From: a virus
Taxonomy: Duplodnaviria; Heunggongvirae; Uroviricota; Caudoviricetes
Strand: one strand, 5' to 3'
DNA length: 6,921 bases
Virus record (IMG/VR): IMGVR_UViG_2563366929_000003
The position numbers were made by a program, and so were the translations under genes. The notes beneath the pieces were generated by a model. The model worked only from the letters and a program-made list of their open reading frames with translations. It ran no database searches and had not been told where the DNA came from. Shown here in pieces: positions 53 through 6,921 of this stretch. Positions within the stretch are counted from its first letter, which is position 1. Each line of letters starts with the position of its first letter.

Positions 53-89
53 CCCGAAAAAGAGCCAGTCAGTTGCTTAACTGACTGGC
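53..89 (-). terminator. Putative intrinsic terminator for the minus-strand two-gene cassette: perfect 11-bp stem (64-74 gccagtcagtt / 79-89 aactgactggc) with 4-nt loop, followed on the minus strand by a T-rich run (rc of 53-63 = TCTTTTTCGGG)
   Basis: Read directly: perfect inverted repeat with gctt loop overlapping the stop codon (77-79) of the minus-strand ORF; a T-run follows in the minus orientation only. Confidence 0.5.
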
Positions 90-388
90 ATTACTGCTGT
101 AGCAAGATTTTTCCTGTATTCGTAAAATGATAACTCTCCTGATTTGAATCCTTTTAAGGTGGCTTCTATAAGGCATTTATTTTTTGAAAATCTTACATTT
201 ACAACCTTACCCTGTCCTTTTATTAAAACCGTATTATCGTTTTCAAGAACAAGATGAATATTCTCTGTGGCTAAATAGTAAATGTAATGTGAGACATTGT
301 GACGTTTTAGTTCAGAATAAAACCAGTGATAGTTTAAATTATTTCGCACTTTATCGAATATTTGTTTAAAAATGGCAATCTGAGCCAT
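77..388 (-). CDS. Hypothetical small protein (~103 aa), AT-rich accessory (moron-like) gene of unknown function; second gene of the minus-strand cassette
   Basis: ORF track 77..403 (108 aa). The first ATG (403) has no purine-rich Shine-Dalgarno upstream (upstream is a C7 tract), whereas the second in-frame ATG (386-388) is preceded by GAAGG at a 7-nt spacing, so the start at 388 is preferred. Region about 120-400 is far more AT-rich than the structural genes. I recognise no family. Confidence 0.5.
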
Positions 389-445
389 TGTAGTACCTTC
401 CATGTGATATGAGGGGGGGTAGTCTGCACGATTATCTAAATTGCT

Positions 446-679
446 TCAATCTGGTCTGACCTGTTTTCTGAGCAATTCAGTAATGTCACTCTTTTCTTTG
501 TTTGCTTCAGGCGAAACTCTTTTTTCTGAGCACAGTCTCCGGCGGCAGGCTTCAATGACCCAGGCTGAGAAATTCCCGGACCCTTTTTGAACAAGAGCGA
601 TGTTAATTTGTTCAATCATTTGGTTAGGAAAGCGGATGTTGCGGGTTGTTGTTCTGCGGGTTCTGTTCTTCGTTGACAT
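446..679 (-). CDS. Small basic DNA-binding protein, ribbon-helix-helix-like (77 aa); resembles the small YnfO/YlcI-type proteins that E. coli cryptic prophages encode next to their Nu1 homologues (recollection, unverified)
   Basis: ORF track 446..679. Basic N-terminal arm (MSTKNRTRRTTTR), then a predicted beta-strand (NIRFP), helix (NQMIEQINIALVQ), a G-x-S/N turn (KGSGN) and second helix (FSAWVIEACRRRL), the typical RHH (Arc/MetJ/CopG-like) layout. Sits divergently just upstream of cos and the Nu1 gene. Confidence 0.65.
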   Translation of the reverse strand: MSTKNRTRRTTTRNIRFPNQMIEQINIALVQKGSGNFSAWVIEACRRRLCSEKRVSPEANKEKSDITELLRKQVRPD

Positions 680-878
680 GAGGTTGCCCTGTATTCAGTG
701 TCGCTGATTTGTATTGTCTGAAGTTGTTTTTACGTTAGGTTGATGCAGATCAATTAATACGATACCTGCGTCATAATTGATTATTTGACGTGGTTTGATG
801 GCCTCCACGCACGTTGTGATATGTAGATGATAATCATTATCGCTTTACGGGTCCTTTCCGGTGATCCGACAGGTTACG

Positions 879-890
879 GGGCGGCGACCT
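879..890. other. cosN: cosN: 12-nt cohesive-end sequence GGGCGGCGACCT (terminase nicking site) of a lambda/21-type cos phage
   Basis: Read directly: 847-878 (acgggtcctttccggtgatccgacaggttacg) matches the lambda right-end sequence as I recall it, followed by gggcggcgacct, then cgcggtttttcactatttatgaaaatttt, nearly identical to the lambda left end. Nu1/A homologues lie immediately downstream. Confidence 0.85.
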
Positions 891-1042
891 CGCGGTTTTT
901 CACTATTTATGAAAATTTTTCAGGGAAAATCGTGTCGGTACTTCTCGAATATAACTTTTTGTTTTTTTTTAATATTGCATTCATAAATGTCCGACATGAA
1001 AGTGTCCGAAAATGCCTTTTTCTGGCGTTTTCATGTCGGGCC
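891..1042. promoter_or_regulatory. cosB: Putative cosB: terminase small-subunit binding repeats (R-like elements containing TTTCATGTCGG / CCGACATGAAA) plus an AT-rich tract (948-985, T5GT9) that may be an IHF/bending site
   Basis: Read directly: 11-bp inverted repeat 991-1001 ccgacatgaaa / 1029-1039 tttcatgtcgg, a related partial copy at 1003-1014 (gtgtccgaaaatg), and a weaker related copy at about 892-905. Position between cosN and the Nu1 start is analogous to the lambda R3-I1-R2-R1 layout, but the repeat sequence differs from the lambda CGTTTCC-type R sites as I recall them. Confidence 0.4.
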
Positions 1043-1067
1043 TTGTATTTGATAATGGGTTGTTTTC

Positions 1068-1616
1068 ATGAAGGTTAATAAAAAGAGGCTTGCCGAAATT
1101 TTTAACGTGGACCCGCGGACGATTGAACGCTGGCAGTCTCAGGGACTCCCTTGCGCCTCCAAAGGTAGTAAGGGCATTGAATCTGTATTTGATACTGCCA
1201 TGGCAATTCAGTGGTATGCGCAGAGGGAAACTGATATCGAAAACGAAAAGCTCCGCAAAGAACTGGCCGATTTGCGTGCGGCAGCGGAGTCAGATTTACA
1301 ACCCGGCACCATTGACTATGAACGCTACCGGCTCACAAAAGCGCAGGCAGATGCGCAGGAACTGAAAAATGCCCGTGAAGACGGAGTGGTGCTGGAAACT
1401 GAACTGTTTACCTTCATTCTGCAACGTGTGGCACAGGAGATTTCGGGGATACTTGTGCGTGTGCCGTTGACATTACAGCGTAAATATCCGGACATTTCAC
1501 CATCACACCTTGATGTGGTGAAAACTGAAATCGCGAAAGCCTCCAATGTTGCAGCTAAGGCCGGTGAAAACGTGGGCGGGTGGATCGATGATTTCAGACG
1601 CGCAGAAGGCAGCTAA
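1068..1616 (+). CDS. nu1: Terminase small subunit (lambda Nu1-like / phage 21 gp1-like), N-terminal winged-HTH DNA-binding domain
   Basis: ORF track 1068..1616 (182 aa). N-terminus [26 protein letters not shown]...[17 protein letters not shown] closely parallels lambda Nu1 (MEVNKKQLADIF...TIQNWQEQG...WYAERDAEIENEKLRRE) by recollection. First gene after cos; length matches Nu1 (181 aa). Confidence 0.9.
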
Positions 1617-3516
1617 TGCAGCCGGTGCGATAGCTACAGGGCTTTTATCTCTCATTATTCCTGTTCCACTGACGACAGTTCAGTGGGCCAATAAACATTA
1701 TTACCTTCCTAAAGAGTCGTCTTATACCCCGGGGCGGTGGGAAACACTGCCGTTTCAGGTTGGCATCATGAACTGTATGGGCAACGATTTGATTCGCACT
1801 GTTAACCTGATTAAATCTGCCCGTGTTGGTTATACAAAGATGTTGCTGGGAGTGGAGGCTTATTTTATTGAGCATAAATCACGCAACAGCCTTCTTTTTC
1901 AGCCCACGGACTCAGCTGCTGAAGATTTTATGAAATCTCATGTTGAGCCAACGATAAGGGATGTTCCTGCATTGCTGGAGCTGGCTCCATGGTTCGGAAG
2001 AAAACACCGCGATAATACGCTCACCCTGAAGCGTTTTTCCTCCGGTGTGGGGTTCTGGTGTCTGGGTGGTGCGGCAGCAAAAAACTACCGTGAAAAATCC
2101 GTGGATGTGGTCTGTTATGACGAGCTTTCCTCGTTCGAACCGGATGTTGAAAAAGAGGGTTCGCCAACCCTGCTGGGGGATAAACGTATTGAGGGCTCTG
2201 TATGGCCAAAATCCATTCGCGGCTCGACGCCTAAAATCAAAGGCTCCTGCCAGATCGAAAAAGCCGCTAACGAGTCGGCACACTTCATGCGTTTTTATGT
2301 GCCCTGTCCGCACTGTGGGGAGGAGCAGTATCTGAAATTTGGCGATGATGCCTCGCCTTTCGGTCTTAAGTGGGAGAAGAATAAGCCAGAAAGTGTTTTC
2401 TACCTTTGTGAGCATCATGGCTGTGTGATCCATCAGTCTGAGCTTGACCAGAGTAACGGGCGGTGGATCTGTGAAAACACGGGCATGTGGACCCGTGACG
2501 GCCTGATGTTTTTCAGCGCCCGGGGTGATGAAATTCCGCCGCCGCGCTCCATCACTTTCCATATCTGGACGGCGTACAGTCCGTTCACCACCTGGGTACA
2601 GATTGTCTATGACTGGCTGGATGCACTGAAAGATCCCAACGGCCTGAAAACCTTTGTGAACACCACGCTGGGCGAGACCTGGGAAGAGGCTGTGGGCGAA
2701 AAACTCGATCACCAGGTGCTGATGGATAAGGTTGTGCGTTACACGGCGGCGGTGCCTGCCCGGGTGGTTTATCTGACGGCGGGCATTGACTCGCAGCGAA
2801 ACCGTTTTGAGATGTATGTCTGGGGATGGGCTCCGGGAGAGGAAGCCTTTCTGGTGGATAAAATCATCATTATGGGGCGTCCCGATGAGGAAGAGACGCT
2901 GTTACGTGTGGATGCGGCGATCAACAAAAAATACCGCCATGCAGACGGAACCGAAATGACCATTTCCCGTGTCTGCTGGGACACCGGGGGGATCGATGGC
3001 GAAATCGTTTATCAGAGGTCAAAAAAACACGGTGTTTTCCGGGTGCTGCCGGTAAAAGGTGCATCTGTTTATGGCAAGCCGGTGATCACCATGCCAAAAA
3101 CCCGCAATCAGCGGGGCGTGTATCTGTGCGAAGTGGGGACGGACACCGCAAAAGAAATTCTCTATGCCCGTATGAAAGCCGATCCCACGCCTGCGGATGA
3201 AGCCACGTCGTATGCCATCCGTTTTCCTGATGATCCGGAGATTTTTTCGCAGACAGAGGCGCAGCAACTGGTGGCGGAAGAGCTTGTGGAGAAGTGGGAA
3301 AAAGGAAAGATGCGTCTGCTGTGGGATAACAAAAAGCGGCGTAACGAAGCGCTGGACTGCCTGGTGTATGCCTACGCGGCATTACGTGTGTCCGTGCAAC
3401 GCTGGCAGCTTGATCTGGCTGTACTGGCAAAATCCCGGGAAGAAGAGACGACCCGGCCAACCCTTAAAGAACTGGCAGCGAAGCTGTCCGGAGGAGTGAA
3501 TGGTTACAGTCGCTGA
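1588..3516 (+). CDS. A: Terminase large subunit (lambda gpA-like); ATPase/translocase plus endonuclease
   Basis: ORF track 1546..3516. Contains [10 protein letters not shown] at 1813-1842 (lambda Walker-A-like segment KSARVGYS), [20 protein letters not shown]...CEHHGC (2305-2424) and C-terminal RRNEALDC, all paralleling lambda gpA by recollection. Preferred start is ATG 1588 (MISDAQ...), giving 642 aa against lambda's 641 and overlapping the Nu1 end by 29 nt; the longer ATG 1546 is possible. Confidence 0.88.
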
Positions 3517-3706
3517 ACTGCAGGCGCTGCGTCAGGCGCGCCTTGATTTATTAACCGGTAAACGGGTGGTGTCTGTCCAGAAAGATGGTCGCAGAATTGA
3601 ATATACGGCAGCTTCTCTGGATGAGCTTAACCGGGCGATCAATGATGCGGAGTCGGTACTGGGGACAACCCGCCGTCGCCGTCGTCCGCTGGGAGTGAGG
3701 TTATGA
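3500..3706 (+). CDS. W: Head-tail joining / head completion protein (lambda gpW-like), 68 aa
   Basis: ORF track 3500..3706. Same length as lambda gpW; motif LTGKRVVSVQKDGRRIEYTA parallels lambda W ([20 protein letters not shown]). GGAGGAG at 3491-3497 just upstream of the ATG; overlaps the end of A by 17 nt. Confidence 0.85.
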   Translation: MVTVAELQALRQARLDLLTGKRVVSVQKDGRRIEYTAASLDELNRAINDAESVLGTTRRRRRPLGVRL

Positions 3707-5295
3707 AACGAACGCCTGTCCTGATTGATGTGAACGGCGTTCCGCTTCGTGAGAGTCTCAGCTACAACGGGGGCGGTGCAGGATTTGGCGGGCAAATGGC
3801 TGAGTGGTTGCCACCGGCGCAGAGTGCCGATGCGGCCCTGCTGCCCGCGTTGCGTCTGGGGAATGCCCGGGCAGATGATCTGGTGCGCAATAACGGAATA
3901 GCGGCCAATGCGGTGGCCCTGCATAAGGATCACATTGTCGGGCATATGTTTCTGATCAGCTACCGTCCGAACTGGCGCTGGCTGGGGATGCGGGAGACCG
4001 CGGCAAAAAGCTTTGTCGATGAGGTGGAGGCGGCCTGGTCAGAATACGCCGAAGGGATGTTTGGCGAGATCGACGTGGAAGGGAAACGCACGTTCACGGA
4101 ATTTATCCGTGAAGGTGTGGGCGTTCATGCGTTTAACGGCGAAATCTTTGTGCAGCCGGTCTGGGATACGGAGAGTACGCAACTGTTTCGTACGCGTTTT
4201 AAAGCCGTGAGTCCGAAACGGGTGGACACGCCAGGACACGGTATCGGGAACCGTTTTCTGCGGGCCGGTGTGGAGGTTGATCGATATGGCCGTGCCGTTG
4301 CGTACCATATCTGTGAGGATGATTTTCCTCGCTCCGGGAGTGGACGATGGGAACGGATCCCGCGTGAACTACCCACCGGGCGTCCGGCCATGCTGCATAT
4401 TTTCGAGCCGGTGGAGGACGGGCAGACCCGTGGGGCTAATCAGTTTTACAGCGTCATGGAACGGCTGAAGATGCTCGATTCCCTGCAGGCAACACAGCTT
4501 CAGTCGGCCATAGTGAAGGCGATGTATGCAGCGACGATTGAAAGTGAACTTGATACCGAAAAGGCCTTTGAATATATCGCCGGCGCGCCACAGGAGCAGA
4601 AGGATAATCCGCTTATTAATATTCTGGAGAAGTTTTCCAGCTGGTATGACACGAATAACGTGACACTGGGCGGTGTCAAAATTCCGCACCTTTTCCCTGG
4701 TGATGATCTGAAACTACAGACTGCGCAGGATTCAGACAATGGATTTTCTGCGCTTGAACAGGCGCTGCTGCGGTATATCGCCGCCGGTCTTGGCGTTTCC
4801 TACGAACAGTTGTCCCGTGATTACTCGAAGGTCAGTTACTCAAGTGCCCGCGCCTCCGCCAATGAGTCGTGGCGCTATTTTATGGGGCGGCGAAAATTTA
4901 TTGCGGCCCGGCTGGCCACGCAGATGTTTTCCTGCTGGCTGGAAGAGGCACTTCTTCGGGGGATTATTCGTCCGCCACGGGCACGTTTTGATTTTTATCA
5001 GGCGCGATCAGCCTGGTCACGGGCAGAGTGGATTGGTGCCGGAAGAATGGCCATTGACGGGCTCAAGGAAGTCCAGGAATCAGTGATGCGCATTGAGGCC
5101 GGACTGAGCACGTATGAGAAAGAGCTGGCGCTGATGGGCGAGGATTATCAGGACATTTTCCGCCAGCAGGTCAGGGAATCTGCTGAGCGGCAAAAAGCCG
5201 GACTCTCACGTCCGGTGTGGATAGCGCAGGCGTATCAGCAGCAGATAGCGGAGAGTCGCAGGCCGGAAGAGGAGACAACACCACGTGAGACGTAA
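3703..5295 (+). CDS. B: Portal protein (lambda gpB-like), 530 aa
   Basis: ORF track 3703..5295. Position between W and the protease gene and size (lambda B is 533 aa) match; ATGA start/stop overlap with W; GGAG in the 3691-3699 region upstream. Confidence 0.88.
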   Translation: MKRTPVLIDVNGVPLRESLSYNGGGAGFGGQMAEWLPPAQSADAALLPALRLGNARADDLVRNNGIAANAVALHKDHIVGHMFLISYRPNWRWLGMRETAAKSFVDEVEAAWSEYAEGMFGEIDVEGKRTFTEFIREGVGVHAFNGEIFVQPVWDTESTQLFRTRFKAVSPKRVDTPGHGIGNRFLRAGVEVDRYGRAVAYHICEDDFPRSGSGRWERIPRELPTGRPAMLHIFEPVEDGQTRGANQFYSVMERLKMLDSLQATQLQSAIVKAMYAATIESELDTEKAFEYIAGAPQEQKDNPLINILEKFSSWYDTNNVTLGGVKIPHLFPGDDLKLQTAQDSDNGFSALEQALLRYIAAGLGVSYEQLSRDYSKVSYSSARASANESWRYFMGRRKFIAARLATQMFSCWLEEALLRGIIRPPRARFDFYQARSAWSRAEWIGAGRMAIDGLKEVQESVMRIEAGLSTYEKELALMGEDYQDIFRQQVRESAERQKAGLSRPVWIAQAYQQQIAESRRPEEETTPRET

Positions 5296-6790
5296 TCTTT
5301 CACACATTATTGCCGCAGCATTCAATGAACCGCTGCTTCTGGAGCCCGCCTATGCGCGGGTTTTCTTTTGCGCGCTCGGGCGCGAGATGGGGGCAGCAAG
5401 TCTTTCGGTACCGCAACAGCAGGTACAGCTTGATGCTCCCGGGATGCTGGCTGAAACGGACGAGTACATGGCCGGAGGTAAACGACCGGCCCGTGTTTAC
5501 CGGGTGGTGAACGGTATTGCGGTACTGCCGGTGACCGGCACGCTGGTGCACCGGCTGGGGGGGATGCGGCCATTTTCCGGAATGACTGGCTATGACGGCA
5601 TTGTCGCCTGTCTTCAGCAGGCAATGGCAGATAGCCAGGTGCGGGGCGTACTGCTGGACATTGACAGTCCGGGCGGGCAGGCCGCCGGCGCGTTTGACTG
5701 CGCTGACATGATTTACCGCCTCCGGCAGCAGAAGCCGGTCTGGGCACTGTGCAATGACACGGCCTGTTCTGCAGCCATGCTGCTGGCGTCGGCCTGCTCC
5801 CGACGGCTGGTTACCCAGACATCCCGTATCGGCTCCATTGGCGTGATGATGAGCCATGTCAGCTATGCCGGTCATCTGGCGCAGGCCGGTGTGGATATCA
5901 CGCTGATTTACTCAGGGGCGCACAAGGTGGATGGCAATCAGTTTGAAGCGTTGCCGGCAGAGGTTCGCCAGGACATGCAGCAGCGGATTGATGCGGCGCG
6001 CCGGATGTTTGCCGAAAAAGTGGCGATGTTTACCGGTCTGTCTGTTGATGCAGTCACGGGAACAGAGGCCGCCGTTTTTGAAGGTCAGTCCGGCATTGAG
6101 GCCGGGCTGGCGGATGAATTAATCAATGCGTCGGATGCCATCAGTGTGATGGCCACGGCGCTGAACAGTAATGTCAGAGGAGGTACTATGCCGCAATTAA
6201 CTGCAACGGAAGCCGCCGCGCAGGAGAACCAGCGAGTGATGGGGATCCTGACATGCCAGGAAGCGAAAGGACGTGAACAGCTTGCCACGATGCTGGCAGG
6301 ACAACAGGGCATGAGCGTTGAACAGGCCCGGGCGATTCTGGCCGCGGCGGCACCGCAGCAGCCGGTGGCATCCGCGCAGAGTGAAGCCGATCGCATTATG
6401 GCGTGTGAAGAAGCGAACGGTCGTGAACAACTGGCGGCAACGCTGGCGGCGATGCCGGAGATGACGGTGGAAAAAGCCCGCCCGATCCTGGCGGCTGCAC
6501 CACTGGCGGATGCCGGGCCCTCGCTTCGTGATCAGATCATGGCACTGGATGAGGCAAAAGGGGCAGAAGCGCAGGCTGAACAACTGGCTGCCTGCCCGGG
6601 AATGACAGTGGAGAGCGCCCGGGCTGTGCTGGCTGCGGGATCAGGTAAGGCAGAACCGGTCTCTGCATCCACAACCGCCCTGTTTGAACATTTCATGGCG
6701 AACCATTCACCGGCAGCGGTACAGGGTGGCGTGGCACAGACGTCAGCAGACGGTGATGCGGACGTGAAAATGCTCATGGCCATGCCATGA
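5285..6790 (+). CDS. C: Prohead protease, S49 peptidase family (lambda gpC-like), with C-terminal scaffold-like repeat domain
   Basis: ORF track 5285..6790 (501 aa), GTG start overlapping the portal stop by 11 nt, GGAG at 5271-5274. N-terminal 300 aa parallel lambda C (AFNEPLLLEPAYARVFFCALG; GIAVLPVTGTLV; MTGYDGI; GAFDCADMI; KPVWAL; SRRLVTQTSRIGSIGVMM; ITLIYSGAHKVDGN) by recollection. Confidence 0.88.
   Translation: MRRNLSHIIAAAFNEPLLLEPAYARVFFCALGREMGAASLSVPQQQVQLDAPGMLAETDEYMAGGKRPARVYRVVNGIAVLPVTGTLVHRLGGMRPFSGMTGYDGIVACLQQAMADSQVRGVLLDIDSPGGQAAGAFDCADMIYRLRQQKPVWALCNDTACSAAMLLASACSRRLVTQTSRIGSIGVMMSHVSYAGHLAQAGVDITLIYSGAHKVDGNQFEALPAEVRQDMQQRIDAARRMFAEKVAMFTGLSVDAVTGTEAAVFEGQSGIEAGLADELINASDAISVMATALNSNVRGGTMPQLTATEAAAQENQRVMGILTCQEAKGREQLATMLAGQQGMSVEQARAILAAAAPQQPVASAQSEADRIMACEEANGREQLAATLAAMPEMTVEKARPILAAAPLADAGPSLRDQIMALDEAKGAEAQAEQLAACPGMTVESARAVLAAGSGKAEPVSASTTALFEHFMANHSPAAVQGGVAQTSADGDADVKMLMAMP
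6188..6790 (+). CDS. nu3: Nested in-frame scaffold protein (lambda Nu3-like), translated from an internal start within the protease gene; 200 aa
   Basis: Read directly: strong Shine-Dalgarno GAGGAGG (6176-6182) 5 nt upstream of an in-frame ATG at 6188 (codon 302 of the protease ORF). The product is Ala/Glu/Gln-rich, low-complexity and repeat-containing, as expected of a scaffold. Lambda has the same C/Nu3 nested arrangement. Confidence 0.6.
   Translation: MPQLTATEAAAQENQRVMGILTCQEAKGREQLATMLAGQQGMSVEQARAILAAAAPQQPVASAQSEADRIMACEEANGREQLAATLAAMPEMTVEKARPILAAAPLADAGPSLRDQIMALDEAKGAEAQAEQLAACPGMTVESARAVLAAGSGKAEPVSASTTALFEHFMANHSPAAVQGGVAQTSADGDADVKMLMAMP
6224..6670 (+). repeat. Three tandem, diverged ~48-53-aa protein-level repeats within the scaffold/Nu3 region (units approx 6224-6382, 6383-6526, 6527-6670)
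   Basis: Read from the translation: ENQRVMGILTCQEAKGREQLATMLAGQQGMSVEQARAILAAAAPQ / EADRIMACEEANGREQLAATLAAMPEMTVEKARPILAAAPLA / RDQIMALDEAKGAEAQAEQLAACPGMTVESARAVLAAGSG. All units are in the same frame with 159- and 144-nt spacing; DNA identity between units is only partial. Confidence 0.7.
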
Positions 6791-6826
6791 AGTCAGTGCT
6801 GACCATCAATAGGAGGTTTTTACAAT

Positions 6827-6921
6827 ATGGTGACGAAAACCATCACTGAACAGCGTGCGGAAGTACGTATTTTTGCCGGTAATGATCCGGCTCATACCGC
6901 CACAGGCAGCAGCGGGATTTC
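6827..6921 (+). CDS. D: Head decoration protein (lambda gpD-like), 5' partial (continues beyond window)
   Basis: ATG at 6827 preceded by AGGAGG (6811-6816). N-terminus MVTKTITEQRAEVRIFAGNDPAHTATGSSGI carries the NDPAHTAT motif recalled from lambda gpD (...SDPAHTATAPGG...). Position immediately after C/Nu3 matches lambda order. Confidence 0.8.
   Translation, partial: MVTKTITEQRAEVRIFAGNDPAHTATGSSGI

What the first reader, a model, noticed from the sequence alone, without database searches (positions are those of the whole stretch)
987..1042. cosB repeats differ from lambda R sites, suggesting non-lambda packaging specificity
Between cosN and the Nu1 start the repeated element is TTTCATGTCGG (inverted copies at 991-1001 and 1029-1039, a partial copy at 1003-1014, a weaker one at about 892-905) and not the CGTTTCC-type R sites I recall from lambda. 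The Nu1-like N-terminal DNA-binding domain is also diverged from lambda Nu1. A terminase DNA-binding domain and its sites co-varying is the known basis of lambda versus phage-21 packaging specificity, so this element likely has 21-like or a distinct specificity while keeping the same cosN. A T5GT9 AT-rich tract (956-970) sits where lambda has its IHF site I1.
Basis: partly seen in the sequence, partly recalled or inferred. Interest (0 to 1): 0.5.

Follow-up and report, generated by a model that had tools for sequence, protein, structure and literature searches.

The report
Phage 21 packaging site (cosB)
The repeats are the already mapped terminase-binding sites (R3, R2, R1 and an IHF site) of the phage 21 packaging signal, sitting in a common E. 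coli prophage next to a small terminase subunit 181/182 identical to phage 21's, so this is an ordinary, well-studied feature.

Summary
The two inverted TTTCATGTCGG copies (991-1001 minus strand, 1029-1039 plus strand) are real. They are R2 and R1 of the phage 21 cosB. Window 879-1075 differs from the phage 21 left end at four positions: one extra T in a T-run and three substitutions.

The small terminase subunit (1068-1616) is 181/182 identical to phage 21 gp1. Its first 66 residues, which hold the DNA-binding domain, are identical, and residues 1-54 match a solved structure (PDB 7LWR) exactly.

The first is not conserved among diverged alleles. The second does not match the motif and lies in sequence nearly identical to lambda.

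The T-rich tract is part of the annotated IHF site I1.

The R cores carry G at bp 56 and bp 59, which published genetics identifies as the lambda/21 discriminators. Lambda and 21 terminases package each other's DNA about 10^4-fold less well than their own (PMC4669245).

A 21-type cosB occurs in 712 of 5426 complete E. coli genomes. Interest is low.

The parts
848..859 (+). R4 box / cosQ region (CGGGTCCTTTCC, containing GGGTCCT). It is shared with lambda and needed for packaging termination.
   Evidence: Annotated as R4 in M81255 (136-147), mapped through alignment A1. Identical in lambda's right end. That cosQ is the 7-bp GGGTCCT is from my own knowledge of the lambda literature.
879..890 (+). 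cosN: the 12-nt cohesive-end sequence GGGCGGCGACCT. Window 879 is bp 1 of the virion chromosome.
   Evidence: Identical to bp 1-12 of phage 21 OL657228 and lambda NC_001416.
908..922 (+). I2 segment between cosN and cosB, annotated as an IHF-like direct repeat. It differs from lambda at one base (window 920).
   Evidence: M81255 feature 196-210 mapped. Comparison with lambda. PMC4669245 states that I2 is needed for termination.
928..943 (+). R3, the critical binding site for the small terminase subunit (AATCGTGTCGGTACTT). The core CGTGTCGG lies at 931-938, which is bp 53-60, with G at bp 56 and G at bp 59.
   Evidence: Annotated as cosB R3 in OL657228 (50-65) and M81255 (216-231) and identical in the window. 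14 of 16 columns are invariant across diverged 21-class alleles. bp 56 and 59 are critical for lambda/21 discrimination (PMC4669245).
952..965 (-). I1, the IHF site between R3 and R2 (minus strand AAAACAAAAAGTTA). The adjoining T-run extends to 970. It is T9 here and T8 in the phage 21 type sequence.
   Evidence: OL657228 feature 74-86 and M81255 feature 238-252. One mismatch to WATCAANNNNTTR at 952-964, minus strand. 11 of 14 columns invariant. T-run length varies from T7 to T10 among 74 loci.
986..1001 (-). R2, inverted relative to R3 and R1 (minus strand TTTCATGTCGGACATT). It differs from phage 21's R2 (…GGACCTT) by C to A at window 988.
   Evidence: OL657228 feature 107-122. Alignment, sequence. 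The same variant occurs in 26 of 196 related loci.
1029..1045 (+). R1 (TTTCATGTCGGGCCTTG), identical to phage 21's R1.
   Evidence: OL657228 feature 150-166. Alignment. Core 8 of 8 invariant across diverged alleles.
1051..1065 (-). I0, an annotated IHF-like sequence overlapping the ribosome-binding site of gene 1. It is a consensus match only.
   Evidence: M81255 feature 338-352. One mismatch to the IHF consensus at 1053-1065, minus strand.
1068..1616 (+). [quoted passage not shown]
   Evidence: 181/182 identical to phage 21 gp1, with residues 1-66 identical. Pfam Phage_Nu1, E = 1e-80. Residues 1-54 identical to PDB 7LWR. 53% identical to lambda Nu1, with E20/R21/S24 in place of Q/N/E in the recognition helix.
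1588..3516 (+). Gene 2, the large terminase subunit (gpA family), which nicks cosN once the small subunit has anchored it at cosB.
   Evidence: Start taken from the phage 21 annotation (OL657228 709). Pfam GpA_ATPase and GpA_nuclease. 98.6-98.8% DNA identity to the phage 21 head operon.

Best explanation
Window 879-1067 is the cos site (cosN plus cosB) of a lambdoid E. coli prophage that carries the packaging module of phage 21. cosB has the canonical complex architecture R3 - I1 - R2 (inverted) - R1.

Inferred mechanism, taken from the lambda/21 literature and not tested here:
1. IHF bends the DNA at I1.
2. A dimer of the winged helix-turn-helix domains of gp1 (the small terminase subunit, TerS-21) docks on R3 and R2 across the bend. 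R1 plays an accessory role.
3. This anchors gp2 (the large subunit, TerL) so that it makes staggered nicks in cosN and starts packaging rightwards.

Specificity lies in the R cores, C(A/G)TGTCGG against lambda's CGTTTCC. They differ at bp 56 and bp 59. It also lies in the matching recognition helix, [10 protein letters not shown] against lambda's RTIQNWQEQG. This element should therefore be packaged by 21-type terminase and not by lambda terminase.
For: - DNA identity: window 822-6921 is 98.6-98.8% identical to phage 21 (M81255, OL657228). In 879-1075 there are only four differences.
R3 and I1 are also present.
- gp1 is 181/182 identical to phage 21 gp1, and the first 66 residues, which hold the DNA-binding domain, are identical. 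A PDB entry (7LWR) matches residues 1-54 exactly.
- R3 has G at bp 56 and G at bp 59 where lambda has T and C. The literature names these positions as the critical lambda/21 discriminators, with Glu24 of lambda TerS clashing with the G:C at bp 56 of 21's R3. The window protein has Ser24 (PMC4669245).
- Published helper-packaging data: a passive prophage with 21's cosB yields 1.24 with a 21-specific helper and 1e-4 with a lambda helper (PMC4669245 Table 6).
- Phylogenetic footprint: among diverged 21-class alleles, some with different cohesive ends, the R3, I1, R2 and R1 blocks and the recognition helix are retained (six of seven alleles; STEC367's R2 core is degenerate) while the spacers drift. 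Pairwise identity is 0.93-1.00 for the R cores and 0.62-0.68 for the spacers.
- CRTGTCGG occurs three times in the window, all in cosB.
Against: There is no substantive evidence against this explanation. Minor points:
- This allele has an extra T in the I1 T-run, so R3-to-R2 is 67 bp rather than phage 21's 66.
- R2 has A in place of the C of the conserved CTT (window 988). This exact allele has therefore not itself been tested.
- Both variants are common natural polymorphisms, and 67 bp is also the spacing in lambda.
- Whether this particular prophage is still inducible or intact cannot be judged from 6.9 kb.
- No binding or cleavage was measured here.
Confidence: 0.95

Rival explanations
1. 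The element has a third packaging specificity, different from both lambda and 21.
For: The repeats are not lambda R sites. The allele differs from the phage 21 type sequence by one indel and three substitutions, one of them inside R2.
Against: - The first 66 residues of the small terminase subunit, including the recognition helix, are identical to phage 21.
- R3 and R1 are identical to phage 21, and the 8-bp core of R2 is identical.
- The variant positions are common polymorphisms within the same 21-class population.
Confidence: 0.02
2. The R2-to-R1 inverted repeat (989-1041) functions mainly as a nucleic-acid hairpin. It could form in the late mRNA just upstream of gene 1 and affect translation, stability or termination, or it could form a DNA cruciform. 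On this reading it is not, or not only, a pair of protein-binding sites.
For: The RNA fold of 980-1050 gives a 53-nt hairpin of -29.4 kcal/mol, z = -7.8. Lambda's equivalent region gives -34.4 kcal/mol, z = -6.0. All 21 distinct alleles retain some hairpin, from -14 to -36 kcal/mol.
Against: - Across 18 distinct alleles, covariation is no better than in shuffles (score 0.066 against 0.071; 357 of 500 shuffles reach the observed value).
- The inner-stem pairs at columns 18/44 and 19/43 are broken in 10 and 9 of the 18 alleles.
- RNAalifold keeps only the invariant R cores and the A/T runs, with a covariation term of about zero.
- Two inverted copies of a 16-bp protein site produce such a hairpin automatically.
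Confidence: 0.03

Closest known systems
cosB of Escherichia phage 21 (GenBank M81255, X02501, OL657228) with its small terminase subunit gp1
   Same: Same order, orientation and sequence of R3, I1, R2 and R1. R3 and R1 are identical. Same cosN. R3 lies at the same distance from the nick (core at bp 53). gp1 is 181/182 identical and the first 66 residues, which hold the DNA-binding domain, are identical. The downstream head genes are 98.6-98.8% identical.
   Different: - One extra T in the I1 T-run (T9 against T8).
- Two substitutions between I1 and R2 (window 981 and 983).
- One substitution in the distal flank of R2 (C to A, window 988).
- One gp1 substitution, D67A.
- The DNA left of about 822 (the cosQ side) is lambda-type rather than phage 21-type.
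cosB of phage lambda with Nu1 (the R3-I1-R2-R1 architecture)
   Same: Homologous architecture, an identical 12-nt cohesive end and cosQ, and the R3 core at bp 53. The R3-to-R2 distance is the same, 67 bp. The small terminase subunits are 53% identical and belong to the same Pfam family.
   Different: The R cores are CGTTTCC in lambda and C(A/G)TGTCGG here (bp 56 T to G, bp 59 C to G). The recognition helix differs at three positions (Q20E, N21R, E24S). Published mutual packaging exclusion is more than 10^3-fold (PMC4669245).
Simple cosB of phage N15 (a single R3, no IHF site)
   Same: A lambda-like cos in which the small terminase subunit's binding site lies about 50 bp right of the nick.
   Different: N15 has one critical R site, no I1, and an unrelated R sequence and recognition helix (PMC4669245). 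The window has three R sites and I1.

Membership tests
Phage 21-specificity complex cosB | Three R sequences in the order R3 - R2 - R1, with R2 inverted relative to R3 and R1 | tested here: met
   CGTGTCGG at 931-938 (+), CATGTCGG at 991-998 (-) and CATGTCGG at 1032-1039 (+). They coincide with the annotated R3, R2 and R1 of OL657228 and M81255.
Phage 21-specificity complex cosB | 21-type discriminator bases in the R core: G:C at bp 56 and G at bp 59, where lambda has T:A and C | tested here: met
   In the three-way alignment, window bp 53-60 reads CGTGTCGG and lambda reads CGTTTCCG. The criticality of bp 56 and 59 is from PMC4669245.
Phage 21-specificity complex cosB | An IHF site (I1) between R3 and R2 | tested here: met
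   Window 952-964 is identical to phage 21's annotated I1 core, with one mismatch to WATCAANNNNTTR. IHF binding itself was not measured.
Phage 21-specificity complex cosB | An adjacent cognate small terminase subunit whose winged helix-turn-helix recognition helix is 21-type | tested here: met
   Residues 1-66 are identical to phage 21 gp1. Residues 1-54 are identical to PDB 7LWR. Pfam Phage_Nu1, E = 1e-80.
Phage 21-specificity complex cosB | The lambda/21 cohesive-end sequence, with R3 at the conserved distance from the nick | tested here: met
   GGGCGGCGACCT at 879-890. The R3 core starts at bp 53, as in phage 21 and lambda.
Phage 21-specificity complex cosB | Packaged by 21-specific terminase but not by lambda-specific terminase | not testable with these tools
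   Published for phage 21's cosB: 1.24 against 1e-4 (PMC4669245 Table 6). Not measured for this exact allele.
Lambda-specificity cosB | R cores of the CGTTTCC type and a Nu1 recognition helix with Glu24 | tested here: not met
   There is no CGTTTCC in cos. The protein has Ser24 and differs at helix positions 20 and 21.
N15-type simple cosB | A single critical R3, no IHF site, and no R2 or R1 upstream of the small terminase subunit gene | tested here: not met
   Three R sites and I1 are present.

The most novel reading that the evidence does not exclude
The R2-spacer-R1 segment (989-1041) might have a second role as a stable hairpin in the late transcript just upstream of gene 1, in both lambda and 21. 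Alternatively, this allele's two deviations from the type phage (a 1-bp longer R3-to-R2 spacing, and C to A in the conserved CTT of R2) might measurably alter packaging efficiency. Neither idea is excluded. The covariation test gives no support for the first, and the second concerns common natural polymorphisms.
Probability: 0.05. Interest if true: 0.25.

Novelty: already known. Interest (0 to 1): 0.07.

Why it matters
It matters little as a discovery. The lambda/21 packaging-specificity pair is a textbook case of co-evolution between a protein and its DNA site, and this window is simply a natural copy of the 21 side.

Practical value:
- It correctly labels this prophage's packaging module as 21-specific. 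That predicts which helper phages or co-resident lambdoid prophages could cross-package it.
- It shows that the first-stage reader can recognise co-variation between a terminase and its sites from raw sequence.

The natural-variation survey adds a small confirmation. R3, I1, R2 and R1 are the conserved blocks of 21-class cosB, even where the cohesive-end sequence itself has changed.

Tried and rejected
1. Rejected: it matches the motif at fewer than 7 of 11 positions, and it is not conserved in diverged alleles.
2. Rejected: it does not match the motif and differs from lambda at a single base (window 896), so it is not a specificity element.
3. CCTGTCGG at 866-873 (minus strand), a 7/8 match to the core lying left of cosN. 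Rejected as a 21-specific site: it is identical in lambda's right end, and phage 21 itself has CCAACAGG there.
4. A conserved RNA or DNA hairpin across R2-R1. The fold is strong, but covariation is not above the controls.
5. TTTCATGAAGG at 1064-1074, over the gene 1 start codon (9/11 match to the motif; direct repeat GTTTTCATG). It lacks the GTCGG half, and its C is lost in many alleles. I treat it as chance.
6. An exact search for the T9 allele in the GTDB species-representative genomes found nothing. The origin of the window was not pinned down beyond an E. coli-type lambdoid prophage. The best complete-genome hit is 99.0% identical.
7. Sippy et al. 2015 (PMC5006951) and Feiss et al. 2010 (PMC2815929) are not held in the library. 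Their conclusions are cited second-hand from PMC4669245.
8. A search for the paper behind PDB 7LWR found nothing.

Full report
**What is in the sequence**

Window 879-890 reads GGGCGGCGACCT, the lambda/21 cohesive end. An ORF of 182 aa starts at 1068. Between them, TTTCATGTCGG occurs exactly twice, at 991-1001 on the minus strand and at 1029-1039 on the plus strand. The tract at 956-970 is T5GT9. The lambda R core CGTTTCC is absent from this region.

The degenerate core CRTGTCGG occurs three times in the 6921-bp window, all between 931 and 1039. Only 1 of 200 dinucleotide shuffles gives three hits anywhere. The 11-nt perfect inverted repeat alone is only modestly unusual (37 of 1000 shuffles).

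**Identification**

A megablast of 780-1620 against phage records gives Escherichia phage 21 as the top hit: M81255 at 98.0%, and X02501 and OL657228 at 99.1%. The whole of 822-6921 is 98.6-98.8% identical to the phage 21 head operon.

Two independently annotated phage 21 records place the following features:

| Feature | Phage 21 position (bp) | Window position |
|---|---|---|
| R4 | -31 to -20 | 848-859 |
| cosN | from bp 1 | from 879 |
| I2 | 30-44 | 908-922 |
| R3 | 50-65 | 928-943 |
| I1 | 72/74-86 | 952-965 |
| R2 (inverted) | 107-122 | 986-1001 |
| R1 | 150-166 | 1029-1045 |
| I0 | 172-186 | 1051-1065 |
| gene 1 | from 189 | from 1068 |

The window positions come from alignment A1.

The window differs from phage 21 in 879-1075 only by:
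- an extra T in the T-run;
- T for C at 981;
- A for G at 983;
- T for G at 988.

- R3 (AATCGTGTCGGTACTT), which the literature treats as the critical site, was missed.
- The 'partial copy' at 1003-1014 does not reach 7/11 identity to the motif on either strand. It repeats only the distal half of R2.
- The 'weaker copy' at 892-905 has no motif match. It lies in the stretch right of cosN, where it differs from lambda at a single base (window 896).

**The protein**

- The 182-aa product is 181/182 identical to phage 21 gp1. The single difference is A67 for D67, so residues 1-66, which hold the DNA-binding domain, are identical.
- It belongs to Pfam Phage_Nu1 (E = 1e-80).
- Residues 1-54 are identical to PDB chain 7LWR_A. 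It also matches the lambda Nu1 DNA-binding-domain structure 1J9I.
- Against lambda Nu1 it is 53% identical. The recognition-helix segment [10 protein letters not shown] differs from lambda's RTIQNWQEQG at positions 20, 21 and 24.

**Link to specificity, from the literature**

All statements in this section come from Feiss et al. 2015 (PMC4669245) and Feiss 2022 (PMC9026076).
- The difference is attributed to the TerS recognition helix and the cosB R sequences.
- bp 56 and bp 59 of R3 are critical for recognition.
- Glu24 of lambda TerS clashes with the G:C at bp 56 of 21's R3.
- In helper-packaging tests, a passive prophage with 21's cosB gave 1.24 with a 21-specific helper, 1e-4 with a lambda helper and 3.5e-4 with an N15 helper (Table 6).
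- PMC9026076 describes the general architecture R3-I1-R2-R1, with R2 inverted. In its model, IHF bends the DNA so that a dimer of the small terminase subunit's DNA-binding domains docks on R3 and R2.

In the window, bp 53-60 reads CGTGTCGG where lambda reads CGTTTCCG. That is G at bp 56 and G at bp 59, together with Ser24 in the protein. The element therefore has phage 21 specificity by every sequence criterion available.

**Natural variation (my own check)**

- A 21-type cosB covering at least 80% of 860-1075 is present in 712 of 5426 complete E. coli genomes.
- Among 74 IMG/VR loci whose small terminase subunit is 98-100% identical, there are 21 distinct alleles between cosN and the gene 1 start.
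- In these alleles the T-run varies from T7 to T10, the 981/983/988 haplotype seen in the window is common, and the R cores are almost invariant.
- More diverged 21-class alleles keep the recognition helix [13 protein letters not shown]; R3, I1 and R1 are kept in all of them and R2 in all but STEC367, whose R2 core is degenerate, while the spacers diverge. These are E. coli MLI114, STEC367 and IMG/VR loci L087-L090, some of which have different cohesive-end sequences.
- Mean pairwise identity is 0.94 for the R3 core, 0.93 for the R2 core, 1.00 for the R1 core and 0.90 for I1.
- With T9, the R3-to-R2 distance in the window is 67 bp. Lambda and the diverged alleles with an intact R2 core (MLI114 and L087-L089) also have 67 bp, while the phage 21 type sequence has 66. 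The indel is therefore within natural tolerance.
- The window's R2 carries A instead of the C of the CTT that ends all other R sites in 21 and in lambda R3. This variant is found in 26 of 196 related loci.

**Rival tested: a hairpin**

Window 989-1041 folds as RNA into a long hairpin of -29.4 kcal/mol, z = -7.8. Lambda's R2-R1 region behaves likewise, at -34.4 kcal/mol, z = -6.0.

Across 18 distinct alleles the results do not support a selected structure:
- the pairing percentage and covariation score are no better than column shuffles (357 of 500 shuffles reach the observed score);
- the inner-stem pairs are broken in about half the alleles;
- RNAalifold retains only the invariant R cores and the A/T runs.

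The hairpin is adequately explained as a by-product of two inverted protein-binding sites.

**Verdict**

The interpretation, a non-lambda and 21-like specificity, is supported. The feature is the already characterised cosB of phage 21, in a widespread E. coli prophage. Novelty: already known. Interest: low.

Noticed in passing
window 756-878: The DNA left of cosN is lambda-type, with 1 mismatch in 123 nt to lambda 48380-48502. Upstream of about 822 it is unlike phage 21's own right end. The prophage is therefore a natural mosaic joined at or near cos: a lambda-like cosQ side with a 21-type cosB and head genes.
   Followed up: partly
L005 (E. coli MLI114, NZ_CP117013.1) 701-1452: This prophage has a natural hybrid small terminase subunit. 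Its N-terminal half is 21-type, with an identical recognition helix, and from about residue 100 it is almost identical to lambda Nu1. It sits next to 21-type R3, R2 and R1. It is a natural counterpart of the laboratory hybrid lambda-21 hy51.
   Followed up: partly
L006 (STEC367), L087, L088-L090, upstream of the small terminase subunit gene: 21-class cosB (R3, I1 and R1, plus R2 in all but STEC367, where its core is degenerate) and the 21-type recognition helix (seen in L087-L090; the STEC367 protein was not examined) occur with different 12-nt cohesive-end sequences, for example GGGCGGCAGCGG and GGGCGGTAGACG. cosN has therefore diverged while cosB specificity has been kept.
   Followed up: partly
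window 989-1041; lambda bp 109-166: The R2-spacer-R1 segment folds into a very stable hairpin in both phages: -29.4 kcal/mol, z = -7.8 here, and -34.4 kcal/mol, z = -6.0 in lambda. No covariation supports a selected structure across 18 alleles.
   Followed up: yes
window 961-970: The T-run beside the IHF core is length-polymorphic, from T7 to T10, among otherwise near-identical prophages. The window has T9 and the type phage 21 has T8. The exact window allele was not found in the GTDB species-representative genomes. A homopolymer sequencing error cannot be excluded.
   Followed up: partly
window 988: R2 ends in ATT rather than the CTT shared by R3, R1, phage 21's R2 and lambda's R3. The variant is present in 26 of 196 related loci, so it is probably tolerated. 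Its effect on binding is untested.
   Followed up: partly
window 1027-1035 and 1062-1070: The direct repeat GTTTTCATG links the left half of R1 to the gene 1 start codon. TTTCATGAAGG at 1064-1074 matches the R motif at 9 of 11 positions. It is not conserved in diverged alleles, so it is probably chance.
   Followed up: partly
window 77-403 (-) and 446-679 (-): Two small minus-strand ORFs lie upstream of cos. In near-identical E. coli prophages the genes there are annotated as a DUF1398 domain protein and a YlcI/YnfO family protein. They were not examined further.
   Followed up: no
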